From: Burkholderiales bacterium
GTDB lineage: Bacteria > Pseudomonadota > Gammaproteobacteria > Burkholderiales > Burkholderiaceae_C
DNA: 32,993 nt
Assembly (NCBI GenBank): GCA_043766725.1
Contig: JAYUHT010000254.1
Coordinates: 1 to 32,993 of the forward strand
Reading direction: 5' to 3'
Below are positions 1,752 through 32,094 of the stretch, piece after piece; the stretch's first letter is position 1, and the number at the start of each line of letters is the position of its first letter. The position numbers and the translations under genes are program-made. A model generated the notes under the pieces. The model saw nothing but the letters and a program-made list of their open reading frames with translations. It was not told the origin of the DNA and did not search any database.

Positions 1752-1785
1752 GCGCGGATGATGCCGCATCGCCCGCTGCGCAGCT

Positions 1786-4700: not shown

Positions 4701-5160
4701 GACCCGGCGCGAGCTTGTCGCCGGAGGCTTCGATGTCGCCGTCCAGCCGCACCAGCGGGCATGCGAGTTCGCCGTTGCGCCAGAGGCTGAACTCGTTGCC
4801 GTCAGCGTAGATGAGATTGGGCAAGGATTGCAGGCGCTGCCATTGCGCCTTGTCGTGCGCCCCTCTCATGCGGCGCGGGTCGGCGCCCTTGCCGGGGGCC
4901 TTGAGTTCAACAAAACCTGCCAACGCGCCGTTCACCGTGATTGCATAGTCTGGCCGCGTGTGAAGGGCTGCTATGGAGGTTTCGCCCACGGTCACGACGG
5001 CGCCTGGGGCAAAGCCGCAAAGCGCGGCCATGTGGCCAACAAGCTGCTCAAAGGGCCCGCGAAGTTGATCTTCGGGTTCGCCCGTCACCGAGGGGTTGTT
5101 GAGCTTGGCCTTTGCGCTTTTGCCGAACTGTGCGACCACTTCAACCAGTGATGGCTTCAT
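1786..5160 (-). CDS. Single-polypeptide restriction-modification enzyme (Type IIG/IIL-like; N6-adenine MTase with Type ISP-like C-terminal specificity region)
   Basis: About 1124 aa from ATG 5160 (track extends to TTG 5205). N-terminal PD-(D/E)xK nuclease (RPDY...FVELK), GSYYTPPEVV, motif I DPATGTGTF, motif IV GNPPY, NLYVYFWRW, C-terminal YEVSGKQVLVQW. No helicase motifs seen. Confidence 0.88.
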   Translation of the reverse strand: MKPSLVEVVAQFGKSAKAKLNNPSVTGEPEDQLRGPFEQLVGHMAALCGFAPGAVVTVGETSIAALHTRPDYAITVNGALAGFVELKAPGKGADPRRMRGAHDKAQWQRLQSLPNLIYADGNEFSLWRNGELACPLVRLDGDIEASGDKLAPGQGLQALFEFFFRWDPIPPRTAKELAEVSARLCRLLRDEVTEALAEKSEALTTLAADWRELLFPQASDSQFADGYAQAVTFGLLTARARGISISTGMHGVSEELKKTSSLIGTALQLLTYSDETRKALSTSLRTLERVLDVVDWPTISKGRTDAWLYFYEDFLEVYDSDLRKLTGSYYTPPEVVGSMVGLVDEALRRPGFDRPRGIADRSVTIADPATGTGTFVLGVLRHVAATVAADEGPGAVAAAIESAMQRLLAFELQLGPFAVAQLRVIAEALALTGAPPKTAPRMFVTDTLGNPHDDGGRFPGFLAPIGRQRKDANRIKRDEPITVVIGNPPYKEKAKGRGGWVEGEGRAKGMYAPLDDWMPPLAWGASAHSKHLRNLYVYFWRWATWKVFDHQPAMGAAAGSGIVAFITVAGFLGGPGFQRMREYLRQRCHEVWVIDCSPEGHQPEVATRIFQGVQQPVCIVLASQWNASQKTQPAVVRWRALPAGHRSAKFEALAALKLDAPGWVLCPHDGRAPFLPASTADWAAHPALEDFFIYNGSGVMPGRTWVIAPDAESLTRRWARLVAAPVQDKERLFHPHLAKEGLGDRHVARVVSTSLAGYPVSERPVGQETGASVAPVAYGVRSFDRQWIVPDVRLINRPNPELWQVRSGAQVYLTAPHDRPPTDGPAATVSALIPDLHHYNGRGGRAFPLWADAAATQPNLRPALLSHLSTTYGQPVSAEDLFAYIAAVAAHPAYIERFRNDLATPGLRIPLTADAATFADAAALGRRVVWLHSFGERLADSAAGRPPGPPRLPPERRPKVPAGGAIPTDSAGMPDVMSYDATAQRLHVGTGYIAPVPAAVWHYEVSGKQVLVQWFSYRRKSRERPIIGDRRAPSPLGDIQPEAWLAEYTTELLDLLNVLGWLIELEPAAAKLLERICTGPLLDAVAMQALGLFTDAPLGPSQRRQRARASRPVPDPGLPRLEGF

Positions 5161-5318
5161 TATCAAATCCACTCCCCGCGTAGTTTGGCAATTGTCGGTG
5201 TTCAAGTCGACTGGCCGGATGCAGCTGGAAGCTTGAGCAGTACTGATCTGCTGTTTCAGCCTCTAAAGCCACAACGGCAAATTTGCTTGGCAGCACGGTT
5301 CAGCGCTGCGCAGGGGTC

Positions 5319-5348
5319 TTGACGGCCTGGCGGGTTGCAGCGTATTAT
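5319..5348 (+). promoter_or_regulatory. Putative sigma70 promoter of vapBC
   Basis: TTGACG (5319-5324) - 18 bp - TATTAT (5343-5348), followed by RBS AAGGA and ATG at 5375. Confidence 0.6.
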
Positions 5349-5374
5349 TGTTGTTAATATCAAGGATCAACACC

Positions 5375-5641
5375 ATGACCATGACCGTCAAGCTCGACCC
5401 CGAACTCGAACAGCGCCTGCGCCAGCGCAGCGTGGCCGAGGGCCGGCCTGCGGGCGAGTTGATCCGCGAGGCCTTGGTGCATTACCTCGATGCCGCAGCA
5501 GCGGCCACGCCCTCGGCACTCACCCTGGGTGCCGATCTGTTTGGCCGTTTCAGCGGGCTGCCCAATCTGGCGCAAACTCGCAAAGCCGCTGTGGCCGATG
5601 CCTGGGCCGGCAAACACGCGGCCCGCGGCGCGCGGCGCTGA
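5375..5641 (+). CDS. Ribbon-helix-helix (CopG-like) antitoxin, VapB-type
   Basis: MTMTVKLDPELEQRLRQRSVAEGRPAGELIREAL fits the RHH pattern; RBS AAGGA; stop abuts the PIN gene start. Confidence 0.85.
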   Translation: MTMTVKLDPELEQRLRQRSVAEGRPAGELIREALVHYLDAAAAATPSALTLGADLFGRFSGLPNLAQTRKAAVADAWAGKHAARGARR

Positions 5642-6112
5642 ATGGCCACGGCCCGCAAGGCGCGCGAGCCCAGCGCGCGCTACCTGGTGCCTGGCCGCGT
5701 GCTGGTGGACAGCGGCCCCTTGATCGCCCTGTTCAATGCCGCGGACCATTGGCATGCGGTCGTGCTGGCCTGGCTCAAGGCCAATGAATCAAGTGCCCTC
5801 ATCACCACCTGGCCCGTGGTCACCGAGGTCTGCGCGCTGCTGGCCCGGCGCATCGGCAACCCTTGTGCGCTTGACTTCCTGCGCTGGGCGCAGCGCGGGG
5901 GCATTGCGGTGGATGCCCACGTGCCGGCTTCGCTGCCCGACATGCTGGCCATTGCCACGCGCTTTGCCAGCTTGCCGTTCGACCTGGCCGATGCGTCCAT
6001 CGTCGAGGCGGCGGCGCGCCTGCGCATCCGCCATGTGCTGAGCATCGACGCCGACTTCGATGTTTACCGTGACAAAGCCGGCAAGCCTTTGGTCAACGCG
6101 CTGCGCGGCTGA
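5642..6112 (+). CDS. vapC: PIN-domain toxin, VapC family
   Basis: VLVDSGPLIAL, VVTEV, DLADASIV and SIDADF carry the acidic PIN catalytic residues. Confidence 0.9.
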   Translation: MATARKAREPSARYLVPGRVLVDSGPLIALFNAADHWHAVVLAWLKANESSALITTWPVVTEVCALLARRIGNPCALDFLRWAQRGGIAVDAHVPASLPDMLAIATRFASLPFDLADASIVEAAARLRIRHVLSIDADFDVYRDKAGKPLVNALRG

Positions 6113-18146: not shown

Positions 18147-18214
18147 GGCCGCAATGGTGGCACCTTGTGCGCACCCTGGTTGGCGCGGGGGTTTGATGGC
18201 TCAGGTTAAAGGGG

Positions 18215-19306
18215 ATGGGCAAGACACGCTATCGGGGCTCCAATGGGCCGGTGCCAAAAAACGCCGCCTTCTTCATCTGTGCTGCGGTGCAGACTCATGT
18301 CGCGCAGCGATGTGATGTCGGGACCAAGCGGCGCTCCTGGCTGCTGGCCAGCGCCAGCACCGCGCTGTTCAGCGGCTTTGCTGCGCAGCCATCGCGTGCC
18401 CAGCCTGGCCAGGTGTTGCAACGCATCGGCTATCTGTCGGCAGGCAGCGCCACCTTGAACCCCGCCGGCTTGCAGGCCTTTCGCGAGGGCTTGCGCGAGC
18501 GCGGCCATGTCGAAGGCCGCGATGTCGTGTTGGACGTGCGTTTTGCAGAGGGGCGCGCGCAGGACCTGCCGCGCCTGGCCACTGAGCTCGCCGCGCTCAA
18601 GCCCGTCGTGATCATCGCGCCGGGCCAGGCCACTGACGCAGCGCTGGCCGCCACGGCCACGCTGGCCACGCCCATCGTGTCACTGGGCGACCTGGTCGCC
18701 TCGGGCTACGCGGTGCAGCTCGGGCGCCCGGGTGGAAGGGTCACGGGGATCAGCTTTCTGCCGTTTCCGCTGAATGCCAAGCGCCTGGAGCTGCTCGCGC
18801 AAACCTTGCCCAAGGGCAGCACGGTGCTCAACCTGGCCGGCCTACAGCCCCGGCCCGAAGCCATGCAAATGGTCGAAGACGCGGGGCGCTCGCTGGGGCT
18901 GGTGACGCATGCGGCTTATGCACACACGGTGGAGGAGATCGACGCGGCGTTCGCAGCCGCACGCCGCTTGCGCGTGGCCGGGGTCAACGTGCTCAATTCA
19001 CCGTTCCTGTACAACCTGCGCGCGCACATCTTCCAACTCGCGGCCAGTGCCAAACTGCCCGCCATCTACCAGTGGCCGGACGCCGCGCGCGAGGGTGGAC
19101 TGATGGCCTACGGGCCGAGCCTGGACGCGATGAATCGCCAGCTCGCCGGTTACGCCTCGCGCATCCTGGGTGGCGCCAAGCCGGCCGACCTGCCCATCGA
19201 ACAACCGACGCGGTTCGAGTTGGTCATCAACCTGAAGACCGCCAAAGCGCTAGGCCTTAACGTTCCAAATGCGCTGCTGCTGCGGGCCGACGAGGTGATT
19301 CAATGA
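18215..19306 (+). CDS. ABC-type substrate-binding protein, COG2984/ABC_sub_bind-like (paralogue 1); start uncertain (ATG 18215 or GTG 18287)
   Basis: KRRSWLL signal-like segment, RIGYL, LGRPGGRVTG, KRLELL, GGLMAYGP, GAKPADLPIEQPTRFELVINLKTAKALG, LLRADEVIQ. Confidence 0.88.
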   Translation: MGKTRYRGSNGPVPKNAAFFICAAVQTHVAQRCDVGTKRRSWLLASASTALFSGFAAQPSRAQPGQVLQRIGYLSAGSATLNPAGLQAFREGLRERGHVEGRDVVLDVRFAEGRAQDLPRLATELAALKPVVIIAPGQATDAALAATATLATPIVSLGDLVASGYAVQLGRPGGRVTGISFLPFPLNAKRLELLAQTLPKGSTVLNLAGLQPRPEAMQMVEDAGRSLGLVTHAAYAHTVEEIDAAFAAARRLRVAGVNVLNSPFLYNLRAHIFQLAASAKLPAIYQWPDAAREGGLMAYGPSLDAMNRQLAGYASRILGGAKPADLPIEQPTRFELVINLKTAKALGLNVPNALLLRADEVIQ

Positions 19307-20310
19307 ACCGCCGCCCGTTCATTGCCGCGCTGGCGGGTGGCGTATTCGGCACGGCAGGTATCGTTGTCGCGCAGCCGGCCAAGGTCTGGCGTATCGGCTA
19401 CATCGTGCCGCGCCCGTCTAGCAGTGATCCCACTCGTGCGGCCGGCGTAGCGGCGTTTCATGACGCCATGCGCGAGCGCGGCTACGTGGCGGGGCGCGAC
19501 TATCGCCTGGAAGAACATTCCGTCGACGGCCGCAACGAGCGTTATGCCGAAATCGCCAATGAGCTGGTCGCGAGCCGGGTCGATCTGCTTCTGGTCGGAG
19601 GCACCTCGGGTGCAAGGGCCGCACAAAAGGCGACGGCGACGATCCCCATCGTTATTTTTTCGGCGTCTGACCCGGTGGGCACCGGCCTGGTGGCCAGCCT
19701 GGCGCGCCCGGGCGGCAACATCACCGGCCGCTCGACGATCACCGCCGAGCTCGACCCCAAGCGGCTCGAGCTGCTGCGTGAAGCGGTGCCCGGCCTGGCC
19801 AACGTGTCCGTGTTGATGGTGGTCTCTCGCGAGTCACCGGGCGTGCCTTCATTGCTGGAGCGGGCGTTTGCGGGCGTCGAAGCGGCCGGCCGCCAGCGTG
19901 GCGTTCGCGTCCGGGCGGTGGGGCTGCAGGGCGCGTCGGCGCTGGACGCGGCACTGGCGCAGATTCACAGCCTGCGCCCAGGTGGTCTGATCGTCTTTGA
20001 CCAGGCCGTCGTCTTGCGCGAGAGCGAGCGCATCCTCGATTTCACGCAGCGCGAGCGCCTGCCGGCGATCTTCCAGTCCAGCGGCTGGGTGAGGGCTGGC
20101 GGGCTGATGTCGTATGGGCCGAACACCACCGATGAGCTGCGTCGGATCACCGCCTACGTGGACAAGATCATCAAGGGTGCCAAGCCCGGCGACCTGCCGG
20201 TCGAGCAGCCCACGCAGATCGAACTGGTCATCAACCTATTGACCGCCAAGGCGCTGGGCTTGACGATCCCGCAAACACTGCTGGTGCGGGCCGATGAGTT
20301 GATTCAGTGA
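19303..20310 (+). CDS. ABC-type substrate-binding protein, COG2984-like (paralogue 2)
   Basis: MNRRPF signal, DPVGTGLVASLARPGGNITG, GGLMSYGP, LPVEQPT, RADELIQ; ATGA overlap with paralogue 1. Confidence 0.92.
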   Translation: MNRRPFIAALAGGVFGTAGIVVAQPAKVWRIGYIVPRPSSSDPTRAAGVAAFHDAMRERGYVAGRDYRLEEHSVDGRNERYAEIANELVASRVDLLLVGGTSGARAAQKATATIPIVIFSASDPVGTGLVASLARPGGNITGRSTITAELDPKRLELLREAVPGLANVSVLMVVSRESPGVPSLLERAFAGVEAAGRQRGVRVRAVGLQGASALDAALAQIHSLRPGGLIVFDQAVVLRESERILDFTQRERLPAIFQSSGWVRAGGLMSYGPNTTDELRRITAYVDKIIKGAKPGDLPVEQPTQIELVINLLTAKALGLTIPQTLLVRADELIQ

Positions 20311-20317
20311 ACAACGC

Positions 20318-20578
20318 TCAGGCCGCCGATTCGAGCGCGATCTCCCAGCTCGGGAACACCAGCACTGCCGGATGGCAGTTGAGCGCCCGGGCCAGAACTT
20401 TGGCCCGCTCGACCCCCAGGTTCACGCGATCATTCTCGATCGCGGAAATGGTCGCCTGCGGGATGCCGGTCAGTGCGCAGAGCTGGTTTTGCGTCAGCTC
20501 CTGCAGTTCCCGCAGGATGCGCACCGACTCGCCAACGCTGACGTCGACGCGCTTGCGGGCTGGACGAAACTCTTTCAT
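20318..20578 (-). CDS. XRE-family HTH antitoxin (HigA-like)
   Basis: RBS GGAGG, ATG 20578; LRELQELTQNQLCALTGIPQATISAIEN is an HTH; lies directly downstream of the RelE-like gene. Confidence 0.88.
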   Translation of the reverse strand: MKEFRPARKRVDVSVGESVRILRELQELTQNQLCALTGIPQATISAIENDRVNLGVERAKVLARALNCHPAVLVFPSWEIALESAA

Positions 20579-20579
20579 T

Positions 20580-20820
20580 TCAACGCCTCCGATAGTCGTG
20601 CGCGGGCACTTCAACGACCTGAATCAACATCACGCCAGTAGCCCGCTGGTAGATCACCCGCCACTGCAAACCCAGGCGCGACGAGCGCTGGCCCTTGCAC
20701 TCACCCGACAAGGCTTCATCATGAAATCCCTTGATGGCACGCAGGCCGGCAGGGCCCGAAAGCATGGCGATGTCTTTCCCCTTCTCGTAGCGTTTCAGGA
20801 CTTCCTGGGGAACCGCAGCA
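20580..20820 (-). pseudogene. RelE/HigB/YoeB-like mRNA interferase toxin, apparently lacking its native N-terminus
   Basis: GFHDEALSG..KGQRSSRLGLQWRVIY...HDY is a RelE-fold pattern; sequence upstream of 20820 is an antisense fragment of a binding-protein gene. Confidence 0.75.
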
Positions 20821-20910
20821 GCCAGCACCGCGCTGTTTGGCGGGCTTGCTGCGCAGGCATCGCGTACCCAGCTTGGCCAAGTGTTGCAACGCATAGGCCA
20901 TCTGTCGGCA
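20821..20910 (+). repeat. 90-bp diverged direct copy of 18353-18442 (5' part of SBP paralogue 1)
   Basis: Ungapped manual alignment gives 80/90 identical bases. Confidence 0.92.
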
Positions 20911-20959
20911 ACAAGCGCCCATGCCGCGCGGCGATGTCAAGGTTTGGCGCATGCTGATA

Positions 20960-22414
20960 TCAATCGTTAAGCCATTGAGCGGCCATCTCGCCCAGCGCCG
21001 CGGTGTAGCAGGACATCGGCACGCGCACGATGCCCGCGCCGATTTGCCCGATGCCCGCTTCACGGTGCGCGATGCCGGTGGTGACGATGGGGCGAATGCC
21101 GCTGTCCACCACCTTGCGCACATCAATGCCGCAGGGTGCACCGGCAAAGTCCAGCGCCGGCAAGCTCAAGGCCGGGTTGCGGGTCACCGTCACTTCAAAC
21201 ATTTCGCGGCTGTAGCGCACGGCGTCACTCACCGTGCCGCCGGCCAGCAAGGTGAGCGCGGGCGAGGCGGCGAACGAGCAGCCGCCAAAGCCCGCGGTTT
21301 CGGTGATCGCGCTGTCGCCAATGTCGGGGCAGGCGTCTGCTTGCTTGAAGCCGGGGAAGAACAGGCCCTGCGGCAGATCAGACTTGGCCGTGAACCACCG
21401 CGGCCCCAGGCCGCTGATGCGCAGCCCGGTTTCGGTGCCGTTGCGCGCCGTGGCCGTGACCACGCTGCTGAAGGCAATGCCATGCGCGGCGTCCATGATG
21501 GCTTTGCACGAGACCATGGAAAAGTTCAGGAAGAACTGCGAGGTCTTGGCCACGAAGTCGAGCGTGTGGTGAATATGCTCAGGCGGCGGGCCCCCCCGTT
21601 GCGCGCCCAGCGCCGCCAGCGGCACGGCCAGGGTCATGAAGAACAGTGCGGTGGACGCGGCATTGCGGCTGTGCACTTCGTCGCCCATCAGTAAGGCCTG
21701 CGATTGAATGGCTTTCAGGTCGATGCCGCCGGCCTTGTCGAACTCATGCCGCACGGCCGCCTTGAGCACCGGAGCCAGCACCGCTTCAAACCATTTCAAA
21801 CGTTGCAGCACATCGGGGCCGTTGGCGCCAAAGCGCAGGCAGCGGCCAATGCCTTCATTCAGATTCGTGTAGGCGCGGTTGCCGTGCGTGGCGCAGCGCA
21901 CCTGAATCAAGGGCATGCTGGCGCTGATCACGCCGGTCATCGGCCCCACGGCGGCGTAGTCGTGGCACTGCGCAAATTCCACTTCACCGCGCGCCAGCAT
22001 GGCGTGCGCCTGCTCGGGCGTGCTGGCCCAGCCCTCGTACAACACGGCGCCAACGAGCGCACCATGCATGGGGCCGCACATGTCGTCAAAGGCCACCGGC
22101 GGGCCGGCGTGCAGCAGCAGCCGCGCGCCCTTCATTTGCGGCCACACCGCATCGGCGCGCAGGGCAATGTCTTCCCACAGGGGGCGGGCGTTGATGATGC
22201 GTTGCGTGGCCTGGGCGTTGGCCGCTTCAATGCGCGCATCGCCCATCAGCCGCGCGAGCTGCCAGGCCAGCAGCGGGTCCGCATTGCCGGGCGGGCGCCA
22301 ATGCACGTTCGCCAGGCTGCCGCCGCTGGCGGTGATGCTGGCGTTGAAGCCTTCCAGGCCGATGTTCAGCACCGCCGGCGCCTGGTTGAGCAGGGTGTTC
22401 GCGTTGAGCGTCAT
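20960..22414 (-). CDS. DUF1116 protein (YahG/YlbE-AllG family; putative catabolic carbamoyltransferase subunit)
   Basis: LLHAGPP, MCGPMHGA, AVGPMTG, LNEGIG..LRFGA, MGDEVHSRN, DIGDSAITE, GIGQIGAG; YahG-like N-terminal extension VLNIGLEGF...WRPPG. Confidence 0.9.
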   Translation of the reverse strand: MTLNANTLLNQAPAVLNIGLEGFNASITASGGSLANVHWRPPGNADPLLAWQLARLMGDARIEAANAQATQRIINARPLWEDIALRADAVWPQMKGARLLLHAGPPVAFDDMCGPMHGALVGAVLYEGWASTPEQAHAMLARGEVEFAQCHDYAAVGPMTGVISASMPLIQVRCATHGNRAYTNLNEGIGRCLRFGANGPDVLQRLKWFEAVLAPVLKAAVRHEFDKAGGIDLKAIQSQALLMGDEVHSRNAASTALFFMTLAVPLAALGAQRGGPPPEHIHHTLDFVAKTSQFFLNFSMVSCKAIMDAAHGIAFSSVVTATARNGTETGLRISGLGPRWFTAKSDLPQGLFFPGFKQADACPDIGDSAITETAGFGGCSFAASPALTLLAGGTVSDAVRYSREMFEVTVTRNPALSLPALDFAGAPCGIDVRKVVDSGIRPIVTTGIAHREAGIGQIGAGIVRVPMSCYTAALGEMAAQWLND

Positions 22415-23121
22415 GTTTGTTCGATGGGTAAGGCGGTCAGGGCCAGCAGCAGGCCGGCCAGCATGTCGGCGCCCGAGCTGGCGCCCAGGCCGAGCAGGGT
22501 TTGAGTGTGATGGCCGATGGCCGCGTGCTCGTTGTCTTGCAGCGCGGCCAGCAGCTCGTGCAAGGCGCGGTAGCTGGCGCCGTTCAGCAGATCAGCCAGC
22601 AGGTGGGCGCTGATCTCATTGGTGGCCGCGCGCGCCGCCGCCAGCAAACGCATCCGCACATCCACCAGTGGCTCATGCCAATCGTTAGGTGCGGCGTGCG
22701 CCAAAGCGAAGAACACGCCGCCGGTGAAATCATCGCCGCTGGGCGTGAGGCCCGGGCCCAGGCCCAGCACGCGCAAGCAGGCGGCTTCCAGGGCGGGCAG
22801 GTCGTGCGCGTGCAAAGCACGGCGCACGGCGTCAAAACGCGGCGTGGCCAGCCTGAACGGGAAGGGCAGTTCCTGCGCTTGCAACCACCGCAGCAGCCCT
22901 TTTGCGGGCAGCCCGTGCAGCAAGTTCAGGCAAGTGTTCGCGCCCGCGCGCAAGTCACGGGCGTGAACGCGCAGCGCGGGCGGCTGCCATGGGTGCAGGG
23001 CGTGGCGTGGGTGATCGGTTTGGGCGCGCTTGCCGGCCCATACGAGCACGCCGTTGCGCCAGGCGTAAGCGGTGGCCTCGAAGCCGGCCACGGGTTGCAG
23101 CGCCGCCGTGCCGGCGTTCAC
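22411..23121 (-). CDS. DUF2877 protein (YahE/YlbF-AllH family)
   Basis: LGLGPGLTPSGDDFTGG, TNEIS, LGASSGADMLAG; GTG start overlapping the carbamate kinase stop. Confidence 0.85.
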   Translation of the reverse strand: MNAGTAALQPVAGFEATAYAWRNGVLVWAGKRAQTDHPRHALHPWQPPALRVHARDLRAGANTCLNLLHGLPAKGLLRWLQAQELPFPFRLATPRFDAVRRALHAHDLPALEAACLRVLGLGPGLTPSGDDFTGGVFFALAHAAPNDWHEPLVDVRMRLLAAARAATNEISAHLLADLLNGASYRALHELLAALQDNEHAAIGHHTQTLLGLGASSGADMLAGLLLALTALPIEQT

Positions 23122-24122
23122 GGCCGCCCACCCAAGGTGATGTGGGTGCCCGCGCGCCCCAGCAGGGCTTCATGCGCTTTTTCAAGCGAAGTGATGATCA
23201 CTTCACCCGCCGCATTGGCCTGTGGCGCTTCTTGCAGGAAGCTGATGGCGGCCTCGATCTTCGGCCCCATGCTGCCGGGCGGAAACTGGTCTTGGGCCGC
23301 GTACTCGCGCGCCTGCGCCAAGCTGAGGTGGTCCAGCCAGCGCTGGCCGGGTTGGTTGTAGTCGAGCGCCACGCGCTCCACGCCGGTGAGCATGATCAGC
23401 GCATCCGCATGCAGGTGCGCGGCCAGCATGGCGCTGGTCAGGTCCTTGTCGATCACCGCGGCCACGCCCTGCCAATGGCCCTGCGCGGTGTGCAGCACCG
23501 GCACGCCGCCGCCGCCGCAGGCGATTGGGATCACGCCCGCATCGAGCAGGGCGTCGATCGTTTTCAGATCGAGAATCTTGCGCGGCTTGGGGCTGGCCAC
23601 CATGCGGCGCCAGCCGCGGCCCGAATCTTCGGCAAAGTACCAGCCGGTACTGGCGGCCATCTGCTTGGCTTCAAGCTCGCTGAAGAACCTGCCCACGGGC
23701 TTGGTGGGGTTGTGAAACGCCGGGTCGTCGGCGTCCACTTCCACTTCCGTGATGATGCAAGACACCACCACGTCCAGCCCTTTGTCGACCAGCACATTGG
23801 CCAGGCTTTGCTGCAGCATGTAGCCCATGCCGCCTTGCGAATGCGCCACGCACACATCCATGGGCATGGGCGGCAGTTCGTTGGCGGTGCGCGCCATGCG
23901 ATAGAGGATGTTGCCCACCACCGGGCCGTTGCCATGGGTGAGCACGAGCTGCCAGCCGGCATGGATGATTTCTACCAAGTGGCCGCAAACCTGGCGCATC
24001 AAGGCCAGTTGCTCCTCGGCCGTGCCCTTGATGGTGGGCGGATACGCCGCATTGCCGCCCAGGGCCACCACCACGCGCTTGCGTGGTGTTAACGCTTGGC
24101 GAAACTTCTTCACAGCAGCCAT
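23118..24122 (-). CDS. arcC: Carbamate kinase
   Basis: VVALGGNA, THGNGPVVG, SQGGMGY, PTKPVG, GWRRMVASP, GGGGVPV, AVIDKD, GSMGPKIEAA. Confidence 0.95.
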   Translation of the reverse strand: MAAVKKFRQALTPRKRVVVALGGNAAYPPTIKGTAEEQLALMRQVCGHLVEIIHAGWQLVLTHGNGPVVGNILYRMARTANELPPMPMDVCVAHSQGGMGYMLQQSLANVLVDKGLDVVVSCIITEVEVDADDPAFHNPTKPVGRFFSELEAKQMAASTGWYFAEDSGRGWRRMVASPKPRKILDLKTIDALLDAGVIPIACGGGGVPVLHTAQGHWQGVAAVIDKDLTSAMLAAHLHADALIMLTGVERVALDYNQPGQRWLDHLSLAQAREYAAQDQFPPGSMGPKIEAAISFLQEAPQANAAGEVIITSLEKAHEALLGRAGTHITLGGRP

Positions 24123-25654
24123 TGCCCCGCCAGCCAGGCCGCGTTGGCGCTGTTGCCCGCCAGCACCATGCCGGCCGCACGCAGCGTGGCCTCTTGGCGC
24201 GACAGCACTTGCGGGTCTAGCTCGGTGCCGCAGACAAAACCCAGCACGGCCAGCTCGCGCCCGCCCTGGCGCGCCTGGCGCCTGGCCTGCTGGATAGCGC
24301 TGGCCAGCTCGGCCGCGGGGTCGGCATGCGCGCCCCAGCCAATGACCACATCGAGCACGATGACGCGCACCTGCGGATCGTTAGCTTCCTTGAGCAAGCG
24401 CTCGATGCGCGCCGCCTGGTCAATCATCGGGTGCGGGCGACCCACGGTGAACTCATCGTCACCCAAATCGAGCACGCTGTGGCCCAGGCTGGCCTGGCGT
24501 GGGTTGGGCAACGCATGTTGCGAATCAAGTGGAACGTTAGACCACACGGCCAATCCAGATCGGGCCCACAGCACCTGCGCCTCGTAAGCGTAGGTGCCAC
24601 CTGAATACAGGGCGCGCAAATACTTCTGCTGTGCCTTGAAGCGCGGCTTGGGCGGCAATGCATAGGCCTGCATGGCCGAGCGCTTGCGGCCGGCCAGCTT
24701 CACCGCCGCGGCGGCGCAATCCACCAAGGTGTTCACCACACGAATACCGGGGGCGCGCACTGTGCTGCCCAGGAACAGCAGCACGGCCGGCTTGCCTGCG
24801 GCCTGCAAGGCGGCCACCACCTTGGCGGCCACTTCAGGCGCGGGGGGCTTGGACAACACCGCGATCACTTGGGTGGCCGGGTCTTGCGCCAGCAGCGCGA
24901 TGCCGCGCAGCAAGCTGGTGCCGCCGACCGCCGCGCTGCCGTCGCGCCCGCCGGTGCCGATGGCGTGGCTCACGCCGCCGCCCATGCGGTGGATTTGCGT
25001 GCTCACCTCTTGCAAGCCCGTGCCCGACGCGCCCACCAGCCCGATGCTGCCGGCGCGCACGTTGTTGGCAAACCCGAGCGGCACCCCGGCGACGATGGCG
25101 GTGCCGCAGTCGGGGCCCATCACCAGCAGGCCGCGCTTGGCGGCTTCTTGCTTCATGGCCACCTCCTGCGCCAGTGGCACGTTGTCGCTGAACATGAACA
25201 CGTTCAAGCCGCGTTGCAAGGCCTTCAACCCTTCGGCCCCGGCATATGCACCGGGCACTGATATTTGCGCGATGTTGGGCGGCGCCGCAGTGCCCGGGCG
25301 GGCCAGGGCCATGGCACTGCTGCGTGGCGGAACGACTTCTTGCGCGCTGGTGCTGGCACCCTGCTCGTGCTGGCCCACCAGGTGCGCCTGCGCCGCCGTG
25401 CGCGCGGCCTCGCCAGCGCCGGGCGTGCGAGCCTGCACCACCACCATCACGTCAGCCGGCCCGGCCTCTTGGATCGCGCCATGCAGCAACCCGGCTTCTT
25501 GCAGAATGGCCTTGTTCGCGGCCGTGCCCATTTGCAGGCTGGCGTTCACCACGTCGGGCAGGGCCAGCAAGCGCTGCGCCACTCGCATCAGGGCCACGGA
25601 GTCCTGGTACAGGTTGGGCTGGATGAAGGCAAGGGTGTGCAGGGGCGGGGTCAT
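24110..25654 (-). CDS. fdrA: FdrA/YahF family protein (acyl-CoA synthetase-like fold; AllF-like)
   Basis: YQDSVALM, MGTAANK, ISVPGAYA, MFSDNV, MGPDCGT, VGASGTGLQE, HAIGTGGRD, YSGGT, DLGDDEFTVGRPHPMID. Confidence 0.93.
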   Translation of the reverse strand: MTPPLHTLAFIQPNLYQDSVALMRVAQRLLALPDVVNASLQMGTAANKAILQEAGLLHGAIQEAGPADVMVVVQARTPGAGEAARTAAQAHLVGQHEQGASTSAQEVVPPRSSAMALARPGTAAPPNIAQISVPGAYAGAEGLKALQRGLNVFMFSDNVPLAQEVAMKQEAAKRGLLVMGPDCGTAIVAGVPLGFANNVRAGSIGLVGASGTGLQEVSTQIHRMGGGVSHAIGTGGRDGSAAVGGTSLLRGIALLAQDPATQVIAVLSKPPAPEVAAKVVAALQAAGKPAVLLFLGSTVRAPGIRVVNTLVDCAAAAVKLAGRKRSAMQAYALPPKPRFKAQQKYLRALYSGGTYAYEAQVLWARSGLAVWSNVPLDSQHALPNPRQASLGHSVLDLGDDEFTVGRPHPMIDQAARIERLLKEANDPQVRVIVLDVVIGWGAHADPAAELASAIQQARRQARQGGRELAVLGFVCGTELDPQVLSRQEATLRAAGMVLAGNSANAAWLAGQWLL

Positions 25655-25762
25655 CAAGTCGCTCGATGGTTCATGAAAGCGCTGAGCGTGCAGCGCAGGC
25701 AGTCTGTGAAGGTCGCTTTGCTACGATGAACCGATCAGGCTTTCAACCGGCACCGCCCTCGC

Positions 25763-27025
25763 ATGACCCTGCCCAAATTGTCACCTCTGGCCGAACCCGC
25801 CTCGGCATTGAACGAACTCAACCCCGCACCGCGTTTGTTGATGGGCCCCGGCCCCATCAACGCCGACCCGCGCGTGCTGCGCGCCATGTCTGCCCCGCTG
25901 CTGGGCCAGTTCGACCCGCAGTTTCGCGGCTACATGCGCGAGACCATGGCGCTGTACCGCGCCTTCTTTGAAACGAAGAACGACTGGACCCTGGTGCTCG
26001 ACGGCACCGCGCGCGCCGCCATTGAAATGGTGATGCTTTCGGCCACGGCGCCCGGCGACAAGGTGCTGGTGTGCAGCTTCGGCCGCTTTGGCCAGTTGCT
26101 CGATGAAATCGCGCAGCGCTGCGGCGCTAACGTTCGGGTTGAGAAGGTGCCCTGGGGCACGGTATTCAGCCTGGAACAGATCGAAGCCGCGCTGAAGGCC
26201 CATTCACCCAAGCTGGTGGCGATCTGCCAGGGCGACACCTCCACCACCATGTTGCAGCCTCTGGCCGGGCTGGGTGAGCTGTGCCACCGCTACGGCGCGC
26301 TGCTGCAGGTGGATGCCACGGCCTCGTGCGGTGGCACGCCGCTGCCGGTGGACGGCTGGGCTGTGGATGCCGTGACGGCCGGCCTGCAAAAGTGCCTGGC
26401 CGGGCCGTCGGGCGCGGCGCCGATCACGCTGTCGCCAGCCATGGCTGAATTGATCTACAGCCGCCGCCACATCGAACAAGGCCTGCAAACCGCGGGCTAC
26501 GTGCCAGGCAGCGGGCCGCGCATTGCCTCGAACTACATGGACCTGGCCATGGTGATGGACTACTGGAGCGACGCTGGCCTGAACCACCACACCGAAGCCA
26601 CCACCATGCTTTATGGCGCCCGCGAATGCGCCCGCATCTTCGTGCAAGAGGGCTTGCCACAGGCCTACGCGCGCCACGCCGCCGCCTCGCGCGCGGTGGT
26701 GGCCGGCGTGCAGGCCATGAACCTGAAGCTATATGGCGACTTGGCCAACAAGATGCCCAACGTGACCGGCATCTACATCCCCGAAGGCCTGAACGGCGAG
26801 CGCGTGCGCGCCGCGCTGCTGAAGCACTTCAACATCGAGATCGGCACCAGCTTCGGACCGCTGCACGGCAAGGTCTGGCGCATCGGCGCCATGGGCTACA
26901 ACGCCCGGCCTGATTGCGTGCTGAACACCCTGGGCGCGCTGGAAGCGGTGCTCGCCGCCGAGGGCCACCGCTTCACACGCGGGGCGGGGGTGGACGCCGC
27001 CTACCAAAGCTACCAAGGCGCTTGA
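25763..27025 (+). CDS. pucG: Class V PLP aminotransferase, (S)-ureidoglycine-glyoxylate aminotransferase-like (PucG/HpxJ)
   Basis: RLLMGPGPINADPRVLRAMS, GQFDP, DATAS, GLQKCL (PLP Lys), SNYMDL, LNHHTEATT, IEIGTSFGPLHGKVWRIG. Subfamily call rests on recalled PucG sequence features. Confidence 0.82.
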   Translation: MTLPKLSPLAEPASALNELNPAPRLLMGPGPINADPRVLRAMSAPLLGQFDPQFRGYMRETMALYRAFFETKNDWTLVLDGTARAAIEMVMLSATAPGDKVLVCSFGRFGQLLDEIAQRCGANVRVEKVPWGTVFSLEQIEAALKAHSPKLVAICQGDTSTTMLQPLAGLGELCHRYGALLQVDATASCGGTPLPVDGWAVDAVTAGLQKCLAGPSGAAPITLSPAMAELIYSRRHIEQGLQTAGYVPGSGPRIASNYMDLAMVMDYWSDAGLNHHTEATTMLYGARECARIFVQEGLPQAYARHAAASRAVVAGVQAMNLKLYGDLANKMPNVTGIYIPEGLNGERVRAALLKHFNIEIGTSFGPLHGKVWRIGAMGYNARPDCVLNTLGALEAVLAAEGHRFTRGAGVDAAYQSYQGA

Positions 27026-27143
27026 GCGCATCGCTGCCGGCGATGCGATGGCACGTCGAGCTGGTGATGAGATGCGCGCGGTCCGCGGCCTCGTGACCCC
27101 GCTGCGCGAAGGTCAGCCAGGCGCCTGGGCGCTGTCAATAGCT

Positions 27144-27178
27144 TGTACAATTTGAATTTCCAATCTTCAATTTGTACA
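27144..27178. promoter_or_regulatory. AT-rich inverted repeat (putative operator) overlapping a TACAAT -10-like hexamer
   Basis: TGTACAATTTGAA-N9-TTCAATTTGTACA, 12/13 complementary, ending 1 bp before ATG 27180. Confidence 0.65.
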
Positions 27179-27179
27179 G

Positions 27180-28349
27180 ATGCTAGACCGCCAGGCTCAT
27201 GCGCTGCTGCACCAGATGGCGCGCGGCTTTTCCGTGATCGCCCTCACCGGCCCGCGCCAATCAGGCAAGACCACGCTGGCCCGCCTGGCCTTTGCAGACA
27301 AGCCGTATCTGTCGCTCGAAGACCTGGAAGTGCGCCAGCGCGTGCTGGCAGATCCGCGGCAGTTCTTGGCACAACTGCCCAACGGCGCGGTGCTCGACGA
27401 AGCGCAGCGCTGCCCCGAGCTGTTTTCCTATCTGCAAGGGGTGGTGGACGAGCGCGCGCGCATGGGCGAATTCGTGCTCACAGGTTCACAGCAATTCGGC
27501 CTCACCGCAGCCATCACCCAGTCTCTGGCCGGGCGGGTGGGGCTGGTACACCTGCTGCCGCTGTCGTGGCCTGAACAACAGCACGCCGGCGTGGCCGCCA
27601 AGACGCTTGAACAAGCCGTGTGGGCGGGCGGCTACCCGGCGCTGTTTGATGCGCGCCGCCGCATCGAGCAGCCCGAGCAATGGTTCAGCGCCTACACGGC
27701 CAGCTACATCGAGCGCGATGTGCGCCAGGTGCTTGGCGTGGCCAACTTGTCGCTGTTCCGCCGCTTTGTGCTGATGTGCGCGGCGCGCACTGGGCAGCTG
27801 CTGAACTTGTCTGCGCTGGCCAGCGATTGCGGCATCAGCCACACCACCGCGCGCAGCTGGCTCACCGTGCTGGAAGCCAGCTACGTGGTGTACCTGCTGC
27901 CGCCGTTTCACCAGAACTTCGGCAAGCGCCTGGTGAAGATGCCCAAGCTGTACTTTCTGGACACCGGCCTGCTGTGCCACCTGCTGCGCATCGACAGCCC
28001 TTTGACGCTGGCCACCCACGCCCTGCGCGGCGCCATTTTCGAGTCGTGGGTGGTGGCTGAAACGCTCAAGCACCGGTTCAACCAGGGCATGAATGCCGAT
28101 CTCTATTTTTGGCGCGACAACCACGGCACCGAGGTCGACTTGATCTTCGAACACGCCGGCTTGCTGCACGCGGTGGAAGTGAAGTCTGGCGCCACGTTTG
28201 CGCCCGATTGGCTGCAAGCCTGCCAGCGCTGGCAGCGCTACGCCGGCGCTGCCGCGGCGGCGCCGGTGCTGGTGTACGGCGGGCGTGACAGCTACGGGGT
28301 GAGCGGCGTGCGGGTGATGGCTTGGCACCAGCTGGGCTGCGCGCCGTGA
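27180..28349 (+). CDS. AAA_14 ATPase with DUF4143 domain (COG1373)
   Basis: Walker A GPRQSGKTT, Walker B VLDEAQ, LTGS, SLAGR, GGYP, YIERDV, KMPKLYFLDTGL, C-terminal EVDL...VEVKS nuclease-like motif. Confidence 0.93.
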   Translation: MLDRQAHALLHQMARGFSVIALTGPRQSGKTTLARLAFADKPYLSLEDLEVRQRVLADPRQFLAQLPNGAVLDEAQRCPELFSYLQGVVDERARMGEFVLTGSQQFGLTAAITQSLAGRVGLVHLLPLSWPEQQHAGVAAKTLEQAVWAGGYPALFDARRRIEQPEQWFSAYTASYIERDVRQVLGVANLSLFRRFVLMCAARTGQLLNLSALASDCGISHTTARSWLTVLEASYVVYLLPPFHQNFGKRLVKMPKLYFLDTGLLCHLLRIDSPLTLATHALRGAIFESWVVAETLKHRFNQGMNADLYFWRDNHGTEVDLIFEHAGLLHAVEVKSGATFAPDWLQACQRWQRYAGAAAAAPVLVYGGRDSYGVSGVRVMAWHQLGCAP

Positions 28350-28477
28350 AGCGATACAAGCTGGAAAGGGCTGGCGTAAAACGGGCTGGCGCAAGAGCAT
28401 GGCCAAGCGCATCATGGCCTGCAATGCGGCCTGTGGCGTGATTCAGCGAAGCCCGGTAGCCGCCGCTGGGAGGTTCC

Positions 28478-29464
28478 ATGATTCGTCGTCGCATGCTTGG
28501 CGCGGCAATTGGCGCAGTGCCGCTAACCTGGCATTACACAGGGCACACCCAATCGACCGTGGCCTTTCGCCGCGTGGGCCTGATCACGGGTGGCTCGCAA
28601 GCCGGCGCCAGCGCGTATGTGGCGGCATTCAAGCAAGGCATGGCTGACCTGGGCTGGATTGAGGGCCGCAACGTGCAGTACCACTTCGCCTATGCCAATG
28701 GCGACATGGGCCGCTTTGATGCCCTGGCGCAAGAGCTGCTGGCGCAAGGCGTTGAGCTGGTTGTGAGCGGCCCGAACGAAGGTACCCGCGCGGTGCACGC
28801 CGCGGCCCCTGCGCTGCCCATCGTGATGGCCTACAACGCCAACGTGCTCAAGCATGGCTTTGTGGCCAGCCTGGCCCGCCCCGGTGGCGTGATCACCGGG
28901 TTGAACATGCAGGCAGAAGACTTGTTCGGCAAGCTGCCGCAGATGCTGCATGAGATGTTGCCGCAGGTGCGGCGCGTGGCCGTGCTGAGCGGTGGCACGT
29001 CTGACTTCACCAACGACTCCTGGGTCGGTACGCAGCGTGCCTGCATGGCGCTGGGGCTGGTGGCGCAGCGCTTCACAGCCACCAATGCGGCACAGTTGGA
29101 CGACGTCATCAAGCAAATCCAGCAGCAGCGCCTGGATGCCGTGGTGGTACCCGCCAACACCTTGCTCATCGCCGAGCGCGTGCGCCTGCACAGCCTGCTG
29201 CAAGCCGCCGCTTTGCCGGCGGCCTATGCCCTGCGTGAGCATGCCTTGGCCGGTGGCTTGTTCAGCTACGGCGCCAACGTCAATGCCCACTTTCGCACCG
29301 CCGCCAGGTACGTTGACAAGATCCTCAAGGGCGCCAAGCCGGCCGACCTGCCGGTTGAACAGCCCATGACCTTCGAGCTGGTCATCAACCTGGCCACCGC
29401 CAAGGCCTTGGGCATTAACGTTCCAAAAGCGCTGCTGCTGCGCGCCGATGAGGTGATTCAATGA
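28478..29464 (+). CDS. ABC-type substrate-binding protein, COG2984-like (paralogue 3)
   Basis: RBS GGAGG, MIRRRML signal, VASLARPGGVITG, GGLFSYG, GAKPADLPVEQP, LLRADEVIQ. Confidence 0.92.
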   Translation: MIRRRMLGAAIGAVPLTWHYTGHTQSTVAFRRVGLITGGSQAGASAYVAAFKQGMADLGWIEGRNVQYHFAYANGDMGRFDALAQELLAQGVELVVSGPNEGTRAVHAAAPALPIVMAYNANVLKHGFVASLARPGGVITGLNMQAEDLFGKLPQMLHEMLPQVRRVAVLSGGTSDFTNDSWVGTQRACMALGLVAQRFTATNAAQLDDVIKQIQQQRLDAVVVPANTLLIAERVRLHSLLQAAALPAAYALREHALAGGLFSYGANVNAHFRTAARYVDKILKGAKPADLPVEQPMTFELVINLATAKALGINVPKALLLRADEVIQ

Positions 29465-30432
29465 GTCTGCACCGCCGTGCCCTGGCCGCGCTGCCCCTGG
29501 CCGTGTTGCTGCCCACGCCATGGGCCCAGGCCTTGCCGCGCATTGCGTGGGTGTGGCCCGGCAGCGCCAGCGGCGACGCCGTGCGCCTGGCTGCCTTCAA
29601 GGAAGGCATGCGCGACGCCGGCATGCTGGAAGGGCAGCACTACCTGCTTGACATGCGCTACGCCGATGGCCAGTACGAGCGCTTCACGCCGCTGATTGCC
29701 GAGTTGCTGGCGGCCCGGCCGGCTGTTCTGATGGTCAACACCATTGCCTCGGTGCGCGCGGCGCAGCAGGCCACCACCAGCGTGCCCATCATCTTCGTGG
29801 CCACCAACGACCCCGTGGGCAGCGGCCTGGTCGCCAGCTTGGCGCGGCCCGGCGGCAACACCACGGGGCTGTCATCACAGAACGAGGACACGGCGATCAA
29901 GAACCTGCAGCTCTTGCGCGAGATGCTGCCGCGCGCGTCGCGGCTGGCCGCGCTGGTCAACCCGGGCAACCCTTCGGCGGCAAAAATTTTTGAGCCCGTG
30001 CGCGCGGCGGCGCAGCGCCTGGGCATCGACGCCTTTGCGGTGGAACTGGCCTCGCCCCAGGGCCTGGACGCCGCCTTCGGCCTCGTCATGGCGCGCCGCC
30101 CCGACGCCTTGCTGGCCATCCCGGACGCCCTGTTCAACAGCGAGCGCGAACACATCGCCGCCCTGGCCCTCAAGCACCGCTTGCCCTACTTCACCACCAA
30201 CCGTGAAAGCACGGCGGCCGGTGGCCTGCTTTCGTACGGCCAGCCGCAAATGGTGATGTTTCGCCGCTCGGCCCTGTATGTGAAGAGCATCCTGGCCGGT
30301 GCCCGGCCGGCCGAGTTGCCGGTTGAGCAACCCACGCGGTTCGAGTTGGTCGTCAACCTGAAGACGGCACGGGCGCTGGGTATTAACGTTCCAAATGCGC
30401 TGCTGCTGCGCGCCGATGAGGTGATTGAATGA
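29461..30432 (+). CDS. ABC-type substrate-binding protein, COG2984-like (paralogue 4)
   Basis: MSLHRR signal, DPVGSGLVASLARPGGNTTG, GGLLSYG, LPVEQPTRFELVVN, LLRADEVIE; ATGA overlap. Confidence 0.92.
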   Translation: MSLHRRALAALPLAVLLPTPWAQALPRIAWVWPGSASGDAVRLAAFKEGMRDAGMLEGQHYLLDMRYADGQYERFTPLIAELLAARPAVLMVNTIASVRAAQQATTSVPIIFVATNDPVGSGLVASLARPGGNTTGLSSQNEDTAIKNLQLLREMLPRASRLAALVNPGNPSAAKIFEPVRAAAQRLGIDAFAVELASPQGLDAAFGLVMARRPDALLAIPDALFNSEREHIAALALKHRLPYFTTNRESTAAGGLLSYGQPQMVMFRRSALYVKSILAGARPAELPVEQPTRFELVVNLKTARALGINVPNALLLRADEVIE

Positions 30433-31427
30433 ACCCACCGCGACGCTGGCTGTTGCAATGGCTGGCCGGCGCAGCCGCCCTGCACGGGCGGGCCGCGCTG
30501 GCCCAGGCCAAGGTGGTGCGCGTGGGCTTTCTGGTGTTCCAGGCGCCACCGAACCCGGCCGACCCCAACTCGCGCTCCGTCGAGCAGGGCTTGCTCGACG
30601 CCGGCTACGTCGAAGGCCGCAACCTGGTGATCGAGCGCCGCTATGCCCAGGGCAACGCCCAACTTCTTCCGGCGTTGGCCGCAGAGCTGGTGCAGGCGCA
30701 GGTCGATGTCATCATGATCTTCGGCCCGGCGCCGCTGGAGGCCGCGCGCAGGGCGACCCGAACCATTCCCTTGGTGATGCTGGCCAGCAGCAGCGACCCG
30801 GTGGCCGATGGCCTGGCGGTGAGCCTGGCACGGCCGGGCGGCAACATCACCGGGTTGACGTACGCGGTGTCGTCGGGGCGCTTTGGCAAGCAGCTCGAAT
30901 TGCTCCAGCTTGCGGCGCCTCGGCTCGGGCGGGTGGCCGTGCTGTGGGATCTCGACCTGGAGATTTATCGCCGTTCCTGGGCCGCGCCGATGGCCGATGC
31001 CGCGCGCACCCTGGGCCTGGAGGTGCTGGCACCCACCATCGTGCAGGCGGCGCGCGACCTGCCCGAAGCCTTTGCACAAATGAAGCGGCAACGGGCCGAC
31101 GCGATCCTTGTCGCCACAGGCGGCCCGCTGAATGCGGCACGCGCGCAAGTCGGCGCGCTGGCGATTCAGCACCAGCTACCCACCATCGCGGCGTTCAAGG
31201 CATTTGTACAGGCCGGTCTGCTGATGAGTTACGGCCCCGACCTGCCGGACATCAATCGCCGCGGCGCCAGTTATGTCGATCGCATCGTCAAGGGCGCGAG
31301 GCCCGGCGAGCTGCCGATCGAATTGCCGATCAAGTACGAGCTGGTGATCAACCGCACGACCGCCAGAGCCCTGGGCATCACGATCCCGCAAGAGCTGCTG
31401 CTGCGCGCGGATGAGGTGATTCAATGA
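30429..31427 (+). CDS. ABC-type substrate-binding protein, COG2984-like (paralogue 5)
   Basis: MNPPRRWLL signal, SLARPGGNITG, GLLMSYGP, LLRADEVIQ; ATGA overlap. Confidence 0.92.
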   Translation: MNPPRRWLLQWLAGAAALHGRAALAQAKVVRVGFLVFQAPPNPADPNSRSVEQGLLDAGYVEGRNLVIERRYAQGNAQLLPALAAELVQAQVDVIMIFGPAPLEAARRATRTIPLVMLASSSDPVADGLAVSLARPGGNITGLTYAVSSGRFGKQLELLQLAAPRLGRVAVLWDLDLEIYRRSWAAPMADAARTLGLEVLAPTIVQAARDLPEAFAQMKRQRADAILVATGGPLNAARAQVGALAIQHQLPTIAAFKAFVQAGLLMSYGPDLPDINRRGASYVDRIVKGARPGELPIELPIKYELVINRTTARALGITIPQELLLRADEVIQ

Positions 31428-31497
31428 ACACACGACGGCGGCTCAAATGGCCATGGCGCTGCGCGCAGACAAGGGCGATCAAATGAACGGTGATCAA

Positions 31498-32094
31498 ATG
31501 AACAGACGCCGATTTCTCGCGGCTGCCGCGCTGGGCGCGGCGGTGCCCATTTCAGCCCGCGCGGCCCGCCCGGGCGCGCGCACCGGCCCAGGCCTGCTCA
31601 CCGTGGCCGGCGCGATTGCGCGCAGCAACCGAGGCCCGCTGGACCCGGCGCTGGATCAACTGATGGTCAAGCACGGCGCCAAGTTCGAGCGCGCGTTTGA
31701 GTTCGACGCCGCCATGTTGGCCCGCCTGCCGGCCATGACCATCGCGCCCACGCTGGAGTACGACGCCAAAACACATCGCTTGAGCGGCCCGCTGCTCAGC
31801 ACGGTGCTCGAAGCCGCGGGCGTGGCCGCTGTTGGGGCCATGAGCGCGCCGGTGATGCTGGGTTTGCGCGCACTCGACGGCTACACCGCGGCAGTGAGCC
31901 TGGCCGACGCGAAGGCCTACCGCATGATCGTGGCCACCACGCTCGACGGTGCGCCGCTGAGCATCGGTGGCCTGGGCCCACTGTGGGCGGTTTATGACGC
32001 GGATCGCCTGAGCGCGTTCAAAGACAAGCCGCTGAAGGAACGCTTTGGCCTGTGCCCGTGGGGGCTTTACTTCATCGACGTGAAAGCGGCGTGA
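31498..32094 (+). CDS. Tat-exported molybdopterin-dependent oxidoreductase-like domain protein
   Basis: MNRRRFLAAAALG Tat signal; LLTVAG, SGPLLSTVL, LRALDGY, DGAPLSIGGLGPLW resemble the Oxidored_molyb fold. Confidence 0.72.
   Translation: MNRRRFLAAAALGAAVPISARAARPGARTGPGLLTVAGAIARSNRGPLDPALDQLMVKHGAKFERAFEFDAAMLARLPAMTIAPTLEYDAKTHRLSGPLLSTVLEAAGVAAVGAMSAPVMLGLRALDGYTAAVSLADAKAYRMIVATTLDGAPLSIGGLGPLWAVYDADRLSAFKDKPLKERFGLCPWGLYFIDVKAA

What the first reader, a model, noticed from the sequence alone, without database searches (positions are those of the whole stretch)
18215..31427. Two arrays of five orphan COG2984-type binding proteins with no transporter: candidate variable receptor repertoire
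Seen: paralogues at 18215-20310 (two) and 28478-31427 (three), all on the + strand, with twin-Arg-like N-termini. They share scaffold motifs (SLARPGG.TG, G.L.SYG, LP.EQP, RADEVI) but differ widely in between. Each is chained to the next by an RBS-containing GAGGTGATT(C/G)AATGA stop/start overlap. No permease or ABC ATPase lies in the window; neighbours are a TA pair and a COG1373 ATPase. Inference: a cassette-like, expanding family of periplasmic ligand sensors or scavengers, sharing a distant transporter or having a non-transport role.
Basis: partly seen in the sequence, partly recalled or inferred. Interest (0 to 1): 0.75.

Follow-up and report, generated by a model that had tools for sequence, protein, structure and literature searches.

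The report
Shuffled binding-protein pool for one kinase
These five genes belong to a pool of about ten very different small-molecule-binding proteins for which no matching importer was found, whose content and order differ between close relatives, and which likely act as interchangeable sensing parts for one shared membrane sensor kinase, giving the cell a variable chemical-sensing repertoire.

Summary
Observation confirmed: five PF04392 genes, 36-41% identical, chained by stop/start overlaps; no ABC permease or ATPase in the window. The 71%-complete genome has ten such genes and no COG4120-type permease match. Among 151 genus genomes, all 29 with two or more copies have this kinase (usually one); 6 of 29 have the permease. 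56 of 80 kinase loci across several phyla have such a gene within 8 kb. Copies are old types under purifying selection (dN/dS 0.14-0.26), with type-specific pockets, reshuffled between sites; the S1-S2 block is missing at this site in the closest relative. Conserved 3' tails look exchanged, and toxin-antitoxin pairs sit inside arrays. Best reading (0.68): many binding proteins, one receptor. Physical docking is untested; the complex predictor was unavailable. Not found in nine literature searches; this scan noted the same system twice before in other genomes.

The parts
18215..19306 (+). S1, orphan PF04392 binding protein; true start uncertain (RR signal region from about 18326; in-frame GTG at 18287)
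   Evidence: orthologs 85-90% in G069 and G116 at other sites
19303..20310 (+). S2, orphan PF04392 binding protein; start overlaps the S1 stop
   Evidence: orthologs 85-87% in G069, G139, G154 with other neighbours
20318..20614 (-). HTH_3 antitoxin of a RelE/HigB-type pair, opposite strand
20580..20820 (-). RelE/HigB-type toxin lacking its native first ~20 residues; likely inactive
   Evidence: 72% to a full-length copy in G125
20821..20919 (+). 99-nt remnant of the S1 5' region (87% to 18353-18451); marks the right edge of the inserted block
   Evidence: (D5)
18196..20917 (.). Whole S1-S2-TA block, missing between pirin and allG in G069 and replaced by other genes in G116
27180..28349 (+). 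COG1373-type AAA_14 + DUF4143 ATPase (PADLOC candidate PDC-S01); recurs inside such arrays
28478..29464 (+). S3, orphan PF04392 binding protein
29461..30432 (+). S4, orphan PF04392 binding protein; model pLDDT 95.5, TM 0.85 to 3LKV
30429..31427 (+). S5, orphan PF04392 binding protein; 3' part 99.7% identical in G069
31424..31501 (+). Mini-remnant: a paralog-like start joined to a paralog-like end, then a second GTGATCAAATGA tail word
   Evidence: sequence
31498..32094 (+). Twin-arginine protein with a weak molybdopterin-oxidoreductase match, started from a tail remnant; a passenger also found between paralogs elsewhere
19292..19306 (+). Conserved tail word (ribosome-binding-like GAGG plus ATGA overlap); also 20296-20310, 29450-29464, 30418-30432, 31413-31427

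Best explanation
The five genes are members of a variable, reshuffled pool of PF04392 binding proteins, likely exported, that likely dock in turn on one conserved dCache sensor domain and so would feed many different ligands into a single kinase-to-cyclase signalling pathway. Shown: ten such genes and one dCache-HAMP-GAF-GAF-HisKA-HATPase kinase with a lone receiver and a receiver-class III cyclase in this genome (C66); the kinase start overlaps a remnant tail of a binding-protein gene and an intact copy follows the cyclase; the link holds across genomes and phyla; pockets differ between types and are kept within types. Inferred: twin-arginine export; ligand binding closes the two lobes; the conserved surface contacts the dCache domain and shifts kinase activity; phosphotransfer to the receiver-cyclase changes a cyclic nucleotide level (base not determined). 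Inferred with less confidence (about 0.55): genes move by homologous recombination between the conserved 3' tails, each of which supplies a ribosome-binding site and start codon to whatever follows, and the embedded toxin-antitoxin pairs slow loss of these deletion-prone arrays.
For: Co-occurrence in 151 genus genomes: 29 of 29 with two or more copies have the kinase, 6 of 29 the COG4120-type permease; 18 of 18 with eight or more copies have the kinase, 2 of 18 the permease; 3 of 109 without a copy have a (weak, 137-146 bit) kinase match; the kinase is single in 34 of 36. Linkage: 56 of 80 best kinase loci have a paralog within 8 kb, 26 of 69 with room upstream have one ending under 400 nt before it, 40 of 80 have the cyclase; record titles include Betaproteobacteria, Rokubacteria/Methylomirabilota and others; 0 of these loci matched the permease. 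Phylum sample of 300: the dCache family in 6, all 6 with a strong paralog; 7 of 8 fetched dCache loci have a paralog next to them, and in 5 the dCache is fused straight to a cyclase, so the partner follows the sensor domain whatever the output. Five further genomes: 2-45 PF04392 matches, 1-3 dCache, 0 permease. dN/dS 0.14-0.26 in 12 ortholog pairs; cleft loops 12% identical between distant paralogs (38% elsewhere) but 79% in close pairs (78% elsewhere). The two specificity positions named in PMC6816091 (passages) give 75 different pairs in 148 sequences and differ in all 8 own copies aligned. RR in 100 of 130 N-termini, lipobox-like Cys in 2 of 148. Tails: S1/S3/S4 are 85-88% identical in the last 60 nt against about 50% in the body, while S1 and its G116 ortholog are 73% there against about 85%. 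21 of 43 ORFs between paralogs are TA-type, all on the opposite strand.
Against: No physical evidence of binding. Neighbouring SBP and kinase genes are not always functionally linked (PMC11113362, abstract). The kinase gene itself sits behind a tail, so part of the linkage could be hitch-hiking. Exceptions: 9 genus genomes have one match and no kinase (two of them have the permease and may be canonical); G367 has a strong paralog and no dCache; 16 phylum genomes with weaker matches (206-279 bits, not classified) have no dCache; 24 of 80 kinase loci have no paralog in the DNA held; one fetched dCache-cyclase locus has none in 10 kb. No natural SBP-dCache fusion among 25 longer hits (weak test). 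The genome is 71% complete and has 48 PF02653 permease matches. dCache conservation (59% against 68% for the catalytic core, 61 kinases) is inflated because loci were picked by that domain. The cleft-loop columns were chosen by me after seeing the entropy table, so only the within-type figure is independent. Codon conservation in the tail (89 of 115 against 435 of 824) could reflect selection on the overlap and not recombination.
Confidence: 0.68

Rival explanations
1. The proteins deliver solutes to a shared ABC importer encoded elsewhere (a missing TrpYZ-type set or one of the many LivHM-type permeases).
For: All three solved PF04392 proteins bind aromatic amino acids (PMC10443332 passages; PMC6816091 passages); the genome is 71% complete and has 48 PF02653 matches; 6 of 29 multi-copy genomes have the cognate-type permease.
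Against: 23 of 29 multi-copy genomes, many over 90% complete, give no match to that permease; best hit in this genome E 6e-4 over 72 aa; TrpX equivalog scores 59-114 against a cut-off of 390; none of the 80 kinase loci has the permease.
Confidence: 0.12
2. They are free periplasmic scavengers or buffers, or serve other receptors; the kinase operon is linked only because it sits in the same recombining arrays.
For: The kinase start overlaps a tail remnant like any other passenger; unrelated passengers occur in arrays; the window arrays lie away from the kinase; PF04392 also occurs fused to Ser/Thr kinases and other domains; adjacency can mislead.
Against: Other passengers are sporadic whereas the dCache is in 29 of 29 multi-copy genomes; in another class the pair occurs also in convergent and divergent layouts that need no tail, and with a different output domain.
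Confidence: 0.13
3. A mostly neutral or selfish cassette that spreads through its recombinogenic tail.
For: Many fragments (63 3'-only, 32 5'-only, 28 middle against 241 full hits), patchy distribution, company of TA pairs.
Against: dN/dS 0.14-0.26 and type-specific conserved pockets; old types shared between species; no recombinase gene among 43 passengers (one IS-like HTH fragment).
Confidence: 0.04

Closest known systems
SBP-stimulated sensor kinases with dCache-like domains (LuxP/LuxQ, HptA/HptS, ChvE/VirA, CBP/ChiS) and NspS/MbaA
   Same: An extracytoplasmic binding protein without its own transporter, genetically tied to a membrane receptor with a dCache domain (PMC8050422 passages; dCache match).
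   Different: The systems in the table passages I saw pair one SBP with one receptor; here about 10 to 45 divergent SBPs go with 1-3 receptors, the set varies between close relatives, and PF04392/ABC_sub_bind has 0 occurrences in that review's main text. Output is a receiver-cyclase, not a DNA-binding regulator.
TrpXYZ / CD0873 / VC_1101 / SP_1069 aromatic amino acid ABC importers (PF04392, COG2984)
   Same: Same fold and Pfam family (TM 0.85 to 3LKV).
   Different: No linked permease or ATPase, far below the TrpX cut-off, specificity positions not conserved, twin-arginine leaders without lipobox, an added conserved C-terminal tail.
Integron cassette arrays with embedded TA modules (recalled)
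   Same: Head-to-tail genes in one orientation, variable content, TA pairs on the opposite strand.
   Different: No tyrosine recombinase on these contigs or among passengers; 116 of 178 junctions leave 60 nt or less; the shared element is the coding 3' end of the gene itself.

Membership tests
PF04392 / COG2984 binding-protein family | Pfam PF04392 above cut-off | tested here: met
   94-137 bits, cut-off 25.9
PF04392 / COG2984 binding-protein family | Class I two-lobed fold like 3LKV/3LFT/6HNI | tested here: met
   S4 model, TM 0.79-0.85
TrpXYZ-type aromatic amino acid importer | TrpX equivalog score | tested here: not met
   59-114 bits, cut-off 390
TrpXYZ-type aromatic amino acid importer | Linked COG4120-type permease and ATPase | tested here: not met
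   None in window; not found with this query in the 71%-complete genome
TrpXYZ-type aromatic amino acid importer | Specificity pair A/Y, E/Y or A/Q (PMC6816091) | tested here: not met
   0 of 8 own copies, 2 of 148 in the alignment
SBP-stimulated dCache receptor system | Membrane kinase or cyclase with a dCache domain in the same genome | tested here: met
   C66 kinase, dCache_1 54.5 bits, cut-off 45; fold matches
SBP-stimulated dCache receptor system | Conserved genetic linkage and co-occurrence of SBP and receptor | tested here: met
SBP-stimulated dCache receptor system | SBP is exported | tested here: inconclusive
   RR leaders in 100 of 130; pattern count only, no signal-peptide predictor
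SBP-stimulated dCache receptor system | Physical SBP-dCache contact | not tested
SBP-stimulated dCache receptor system | Ligand-dependent change of kinase or cyclase output | not testable with these tools
   needs experiment
Integron cassette array | Integron integrase next to the array | tested here: not met
   5 PF00589 matches in the genome, none on a contig with a paralog (not examined for IntI type); none among 43 passengers
Integron cassette array | attC sites between cassettes | tested here: inconclusive
   No attC model was run; window genes overlap and 116 of 178 junctions are 60 nt or less, leaving little room

The most novel reading that the evidence does not exclude
A many-to-one bacterial chemosensory system: tens of interchangeable PF04392 receptor subunits with hypervariable pockets and one docking face plug into a single dCache kinase/cyclase, and the repertoire is traded and reordered as integrase-free cassettes whose recombination site, ribosome-binding site and next start codon are all written into the protein's own conserved last codons, with TA pairs guarding the arrays.
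Probability: 0.45. Interest if true: 0.85.

Novelty: new variant of a known kind. Interest (0 to 1): 0.7.

Why it matters
These genes are annotated as ABC transporter parts (source names) and reach 31-45 matches in some soil and sediment genomes, so metabolic models may read them wrongly as uptake capacity. If they feed one receptor, bacteria have a way to widen what they sense without building new receptors, by swapping soluble subunits. It is testable: cultured Variovorax strains carry the module with one or two copies nearby. A fixed kinase with exchangeable input proteins would also be a natural biosensor platform.

Tried and rejected
Complex prediction of S4 with the dCache domain: tool not available, no result. 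Natural SBP-dCache fusion: none among 25 longer hits from 7988 scored candidates; 16 look like two paralogs read as one, 3 are Ser/Thr kinase fusions. Recent tandem duplication: rejected (one row was out of frame, so the root is meaningless, and it was not used). Integron or dedicated recombinase: not found. Expression: no RNA holder listed. Joints in metagenome contigs are mostly short-sided or from other organisms and were not used as evidence of excision. Cyclase base specificity: metal-binding Asp residues and the N/R pair align with CyaB, but the base-selecting Lys is Arg and the second site Ala (role of these sites recalled), so cAMP is not claimed. Literature: nine searches (PF04392; COG2984; K01989; ABC_sub_bind with histidine kinase; CD0873; Rokubacteria with expansion terms; orphan SBP terms; Bradyrhizobium with Cache and cyclase; Rokubacteria with dCache) listed no description of this system; the library lacks most subscription papers, and no supplements were read, where family lists may bear on the novelty claim. 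Look-ups of earlier notes by sequence and by genome were empty.
Full report
Observation. The five ORFs S1 (18215-19306), S2 (19303-20310), S3 (28478-29464), S4 (29461-30432) and S5 (30429-31427) exist, all match PF04392 above cut-off and are 36-41% identical. The three internal junctions are ATGA overlaps inside the word GAGGTGATT(C/G)AATGA. No ABC permease or ATPase was found in the window. An S4 model (pLDDT 95.5) matches 3LKV, 3LFT and 6HNI with TM 0.79-0.85.

Genome. The assembly is 71% complete with 645 contigs and has 12 PF04392 matches. Two are halves of one gene (97-nt contig overlap) and one (C396) is divergent and groups with canonical proteins, leaving ten of the orphan type. A COG4120-type permease taken from a canonical locus finds nothing convincing (best E 6e-4 over 72 aa), although 48 broad PF02653 matches exist. 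The closest named kinase relatives come from records titled Rubrivivax sp..

The partner. On contig C66 a paralog follows three genes: a dCache-HAMP-GAF-GAF-HisKA-HATPase kinase, a lone receiver, and a receiver-class III cyclase. The kinase's GTG start overlaps a remnant tail of a vanished paralog. The same module lies within or at the end of long arrays in G007, G014 and G016, and arrays of up to about 17 hits occur in G156 and G160. In an even draw of 150 genus genomes plus this one, the kinase domain was found in 36, the paralogs (E up to 1e-40, at most 14 candidates scored) in 42 and the permease in 10. All 29 genomes with two or more paralogs have the kinase, 6 have the permease; 33 of 36 kinase genomes have a paralog, and the three exceptions are the weakest kinase matches; 9 genomes have a single match without the kinase. 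In 300 phylum genomes the dCache family rang in 6; all 6 have a paralog over 300 bits, a seventh genome has such a paralog without dCache, and 16 have weaker, unclassified matches without dCache. Of 8 dCache loci fetched from that class, 7 have a neighbouring paralog, in tandem, convergent or divergent layout, and in 5 of the 7 the dCache is fused directly to a cyclase. Five more genomes picked through their kinase loci have 6, 31, 10, 2 and 45 PF04392 matches, 1-3 dCache matches and no permease match.

Repertoire. Across 148 aligned copies the scaffold is conserved and the loops after the core strands are hypervariable. The two specificity positions of the solved relatives (PMC6816091, passages), mapped through to S4 247 and 263, give 75 different pairs, and the eight own copies aligned all differ. 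Cleft loops are 12% identical in distant pairs and 79% in close pairs, and 12 ortholog pairs have dN/dS 0.14-0.26. Only 7 of 119 copies have their best hit in the same genome, and the five window genes fall in five separate groups shared with other species. So these are old, selected types with their own pockets.

Shuffling. In G069 (kinase domain 98% identical) the pirin-allG site is empty; in G116 it holds a PIN-type TA gene and another gene; the S1 and S2 orthologs have other neighbours in each genome. The window block ends in a 99-nt remnant of S1 that has replaced the toxin's first residues. A start-plus-end mini-remnant follows S5. All 10 occurrences of the tail word pattern in the genome are at paralog ends or remnants. 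S1, S3 and S4 share 85-88% in the last 60 nt but about 50% in the body, more than S1 shares there with its G116 ortholog (73%). Fetched loci hold 241 full hits and 123 internal fragments (some loci are held twice, and frameshifted halves count as fragments), and 21 of 43 ORFs lying between paralogs are TA-type (a few weak), all on the opposite strand; two are COG1373 ATPases. No tyrosine recombinase is on these contigs. Homologous recombination between tails is my inference; selection on the overlap could explain part of the codon conservation.

Mechanism. Shown: anatomy, linkage, co-occurrence, pocket diversity, selection, reshuffling. Inferred: export, docking on dCache, signal flow to the cyclase, tail recombination, TA stabilisation. 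The docking step has no direct support because the complex predictor was unavailable, and neighbouring SBP and kinase genes can be unlinked in function (PMC11113362, abstract). I put the signalling reading at 0.68.

Comparison. It works like LuxP/LuxQ or HptA/HptS (PMC8050422, passages) but membership is unproven until contact is shown; it is not a TrpXYZ importer and not an integron. PMC10443332 and PMC9602780 (passages) list PF04392 only as a small family binding Trp, Tyr and Phe or as a search profile. Nine searches found no description in print. Two earlier notes of this scan reached the same reading in other genomes; I looked them up after forming it, and they are not independent support. 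Verdict: new variant of a known kind, interest 0.7.

Noticed in passing
window 1109-6112: Island after the release factor 3 gene: MNT-HepT pair, a 1139-aa type ISP/IIG restriction-modification enzyme, and an RHH-PIN pair.
   Followed up: no
window 6113-about 7000 (-): A secreted metallo-beta-lactamase-fold hydrolase appears split over two frames near 6500; frameshift or assembly error not checked.
   Followed up: no
window 20960-27025: allG, allH, carbamate kinase, FdrA-like CoA-ligase and a class V aminotransferase: an oxamate/purine nitrogen catabolism cluster lying between the two arrays and conserved in G069 and G116.
   Followed up: partly
L001:4578-5705 (G000 C66): The cyclase has Arg and Ala where CyaB has Lys and Thr at the base-selecting sites; product unknown.
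   Followed up: partly
L008, L011, L012, L001 kinases: The number of GAF domains in the kinase varies from 2 to 4 between genomes while the dCache stays conserved; open frames range up to about 2000 aa.
   Followed up: no
L006:775-1869 (G000 C396): A divergent PF04392 gene directly after an MFS transporter gene, grouping with canonical proteins.
   Followed up: partly
P0023-P0025: Ser/Thr kinase and PF04392 in one protein of about 730 aa: a second signalling use of the family.
   Followed up: no
window 28523-29521 (-) and other paralogs: Long antisense open frames over the paralogs have no Pfam match; likely shadow ORFs.
   Followed up: partly
L092 and L153: GYD-domain genes recur between paralogs in unrelated genomes.
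   Followed up: no
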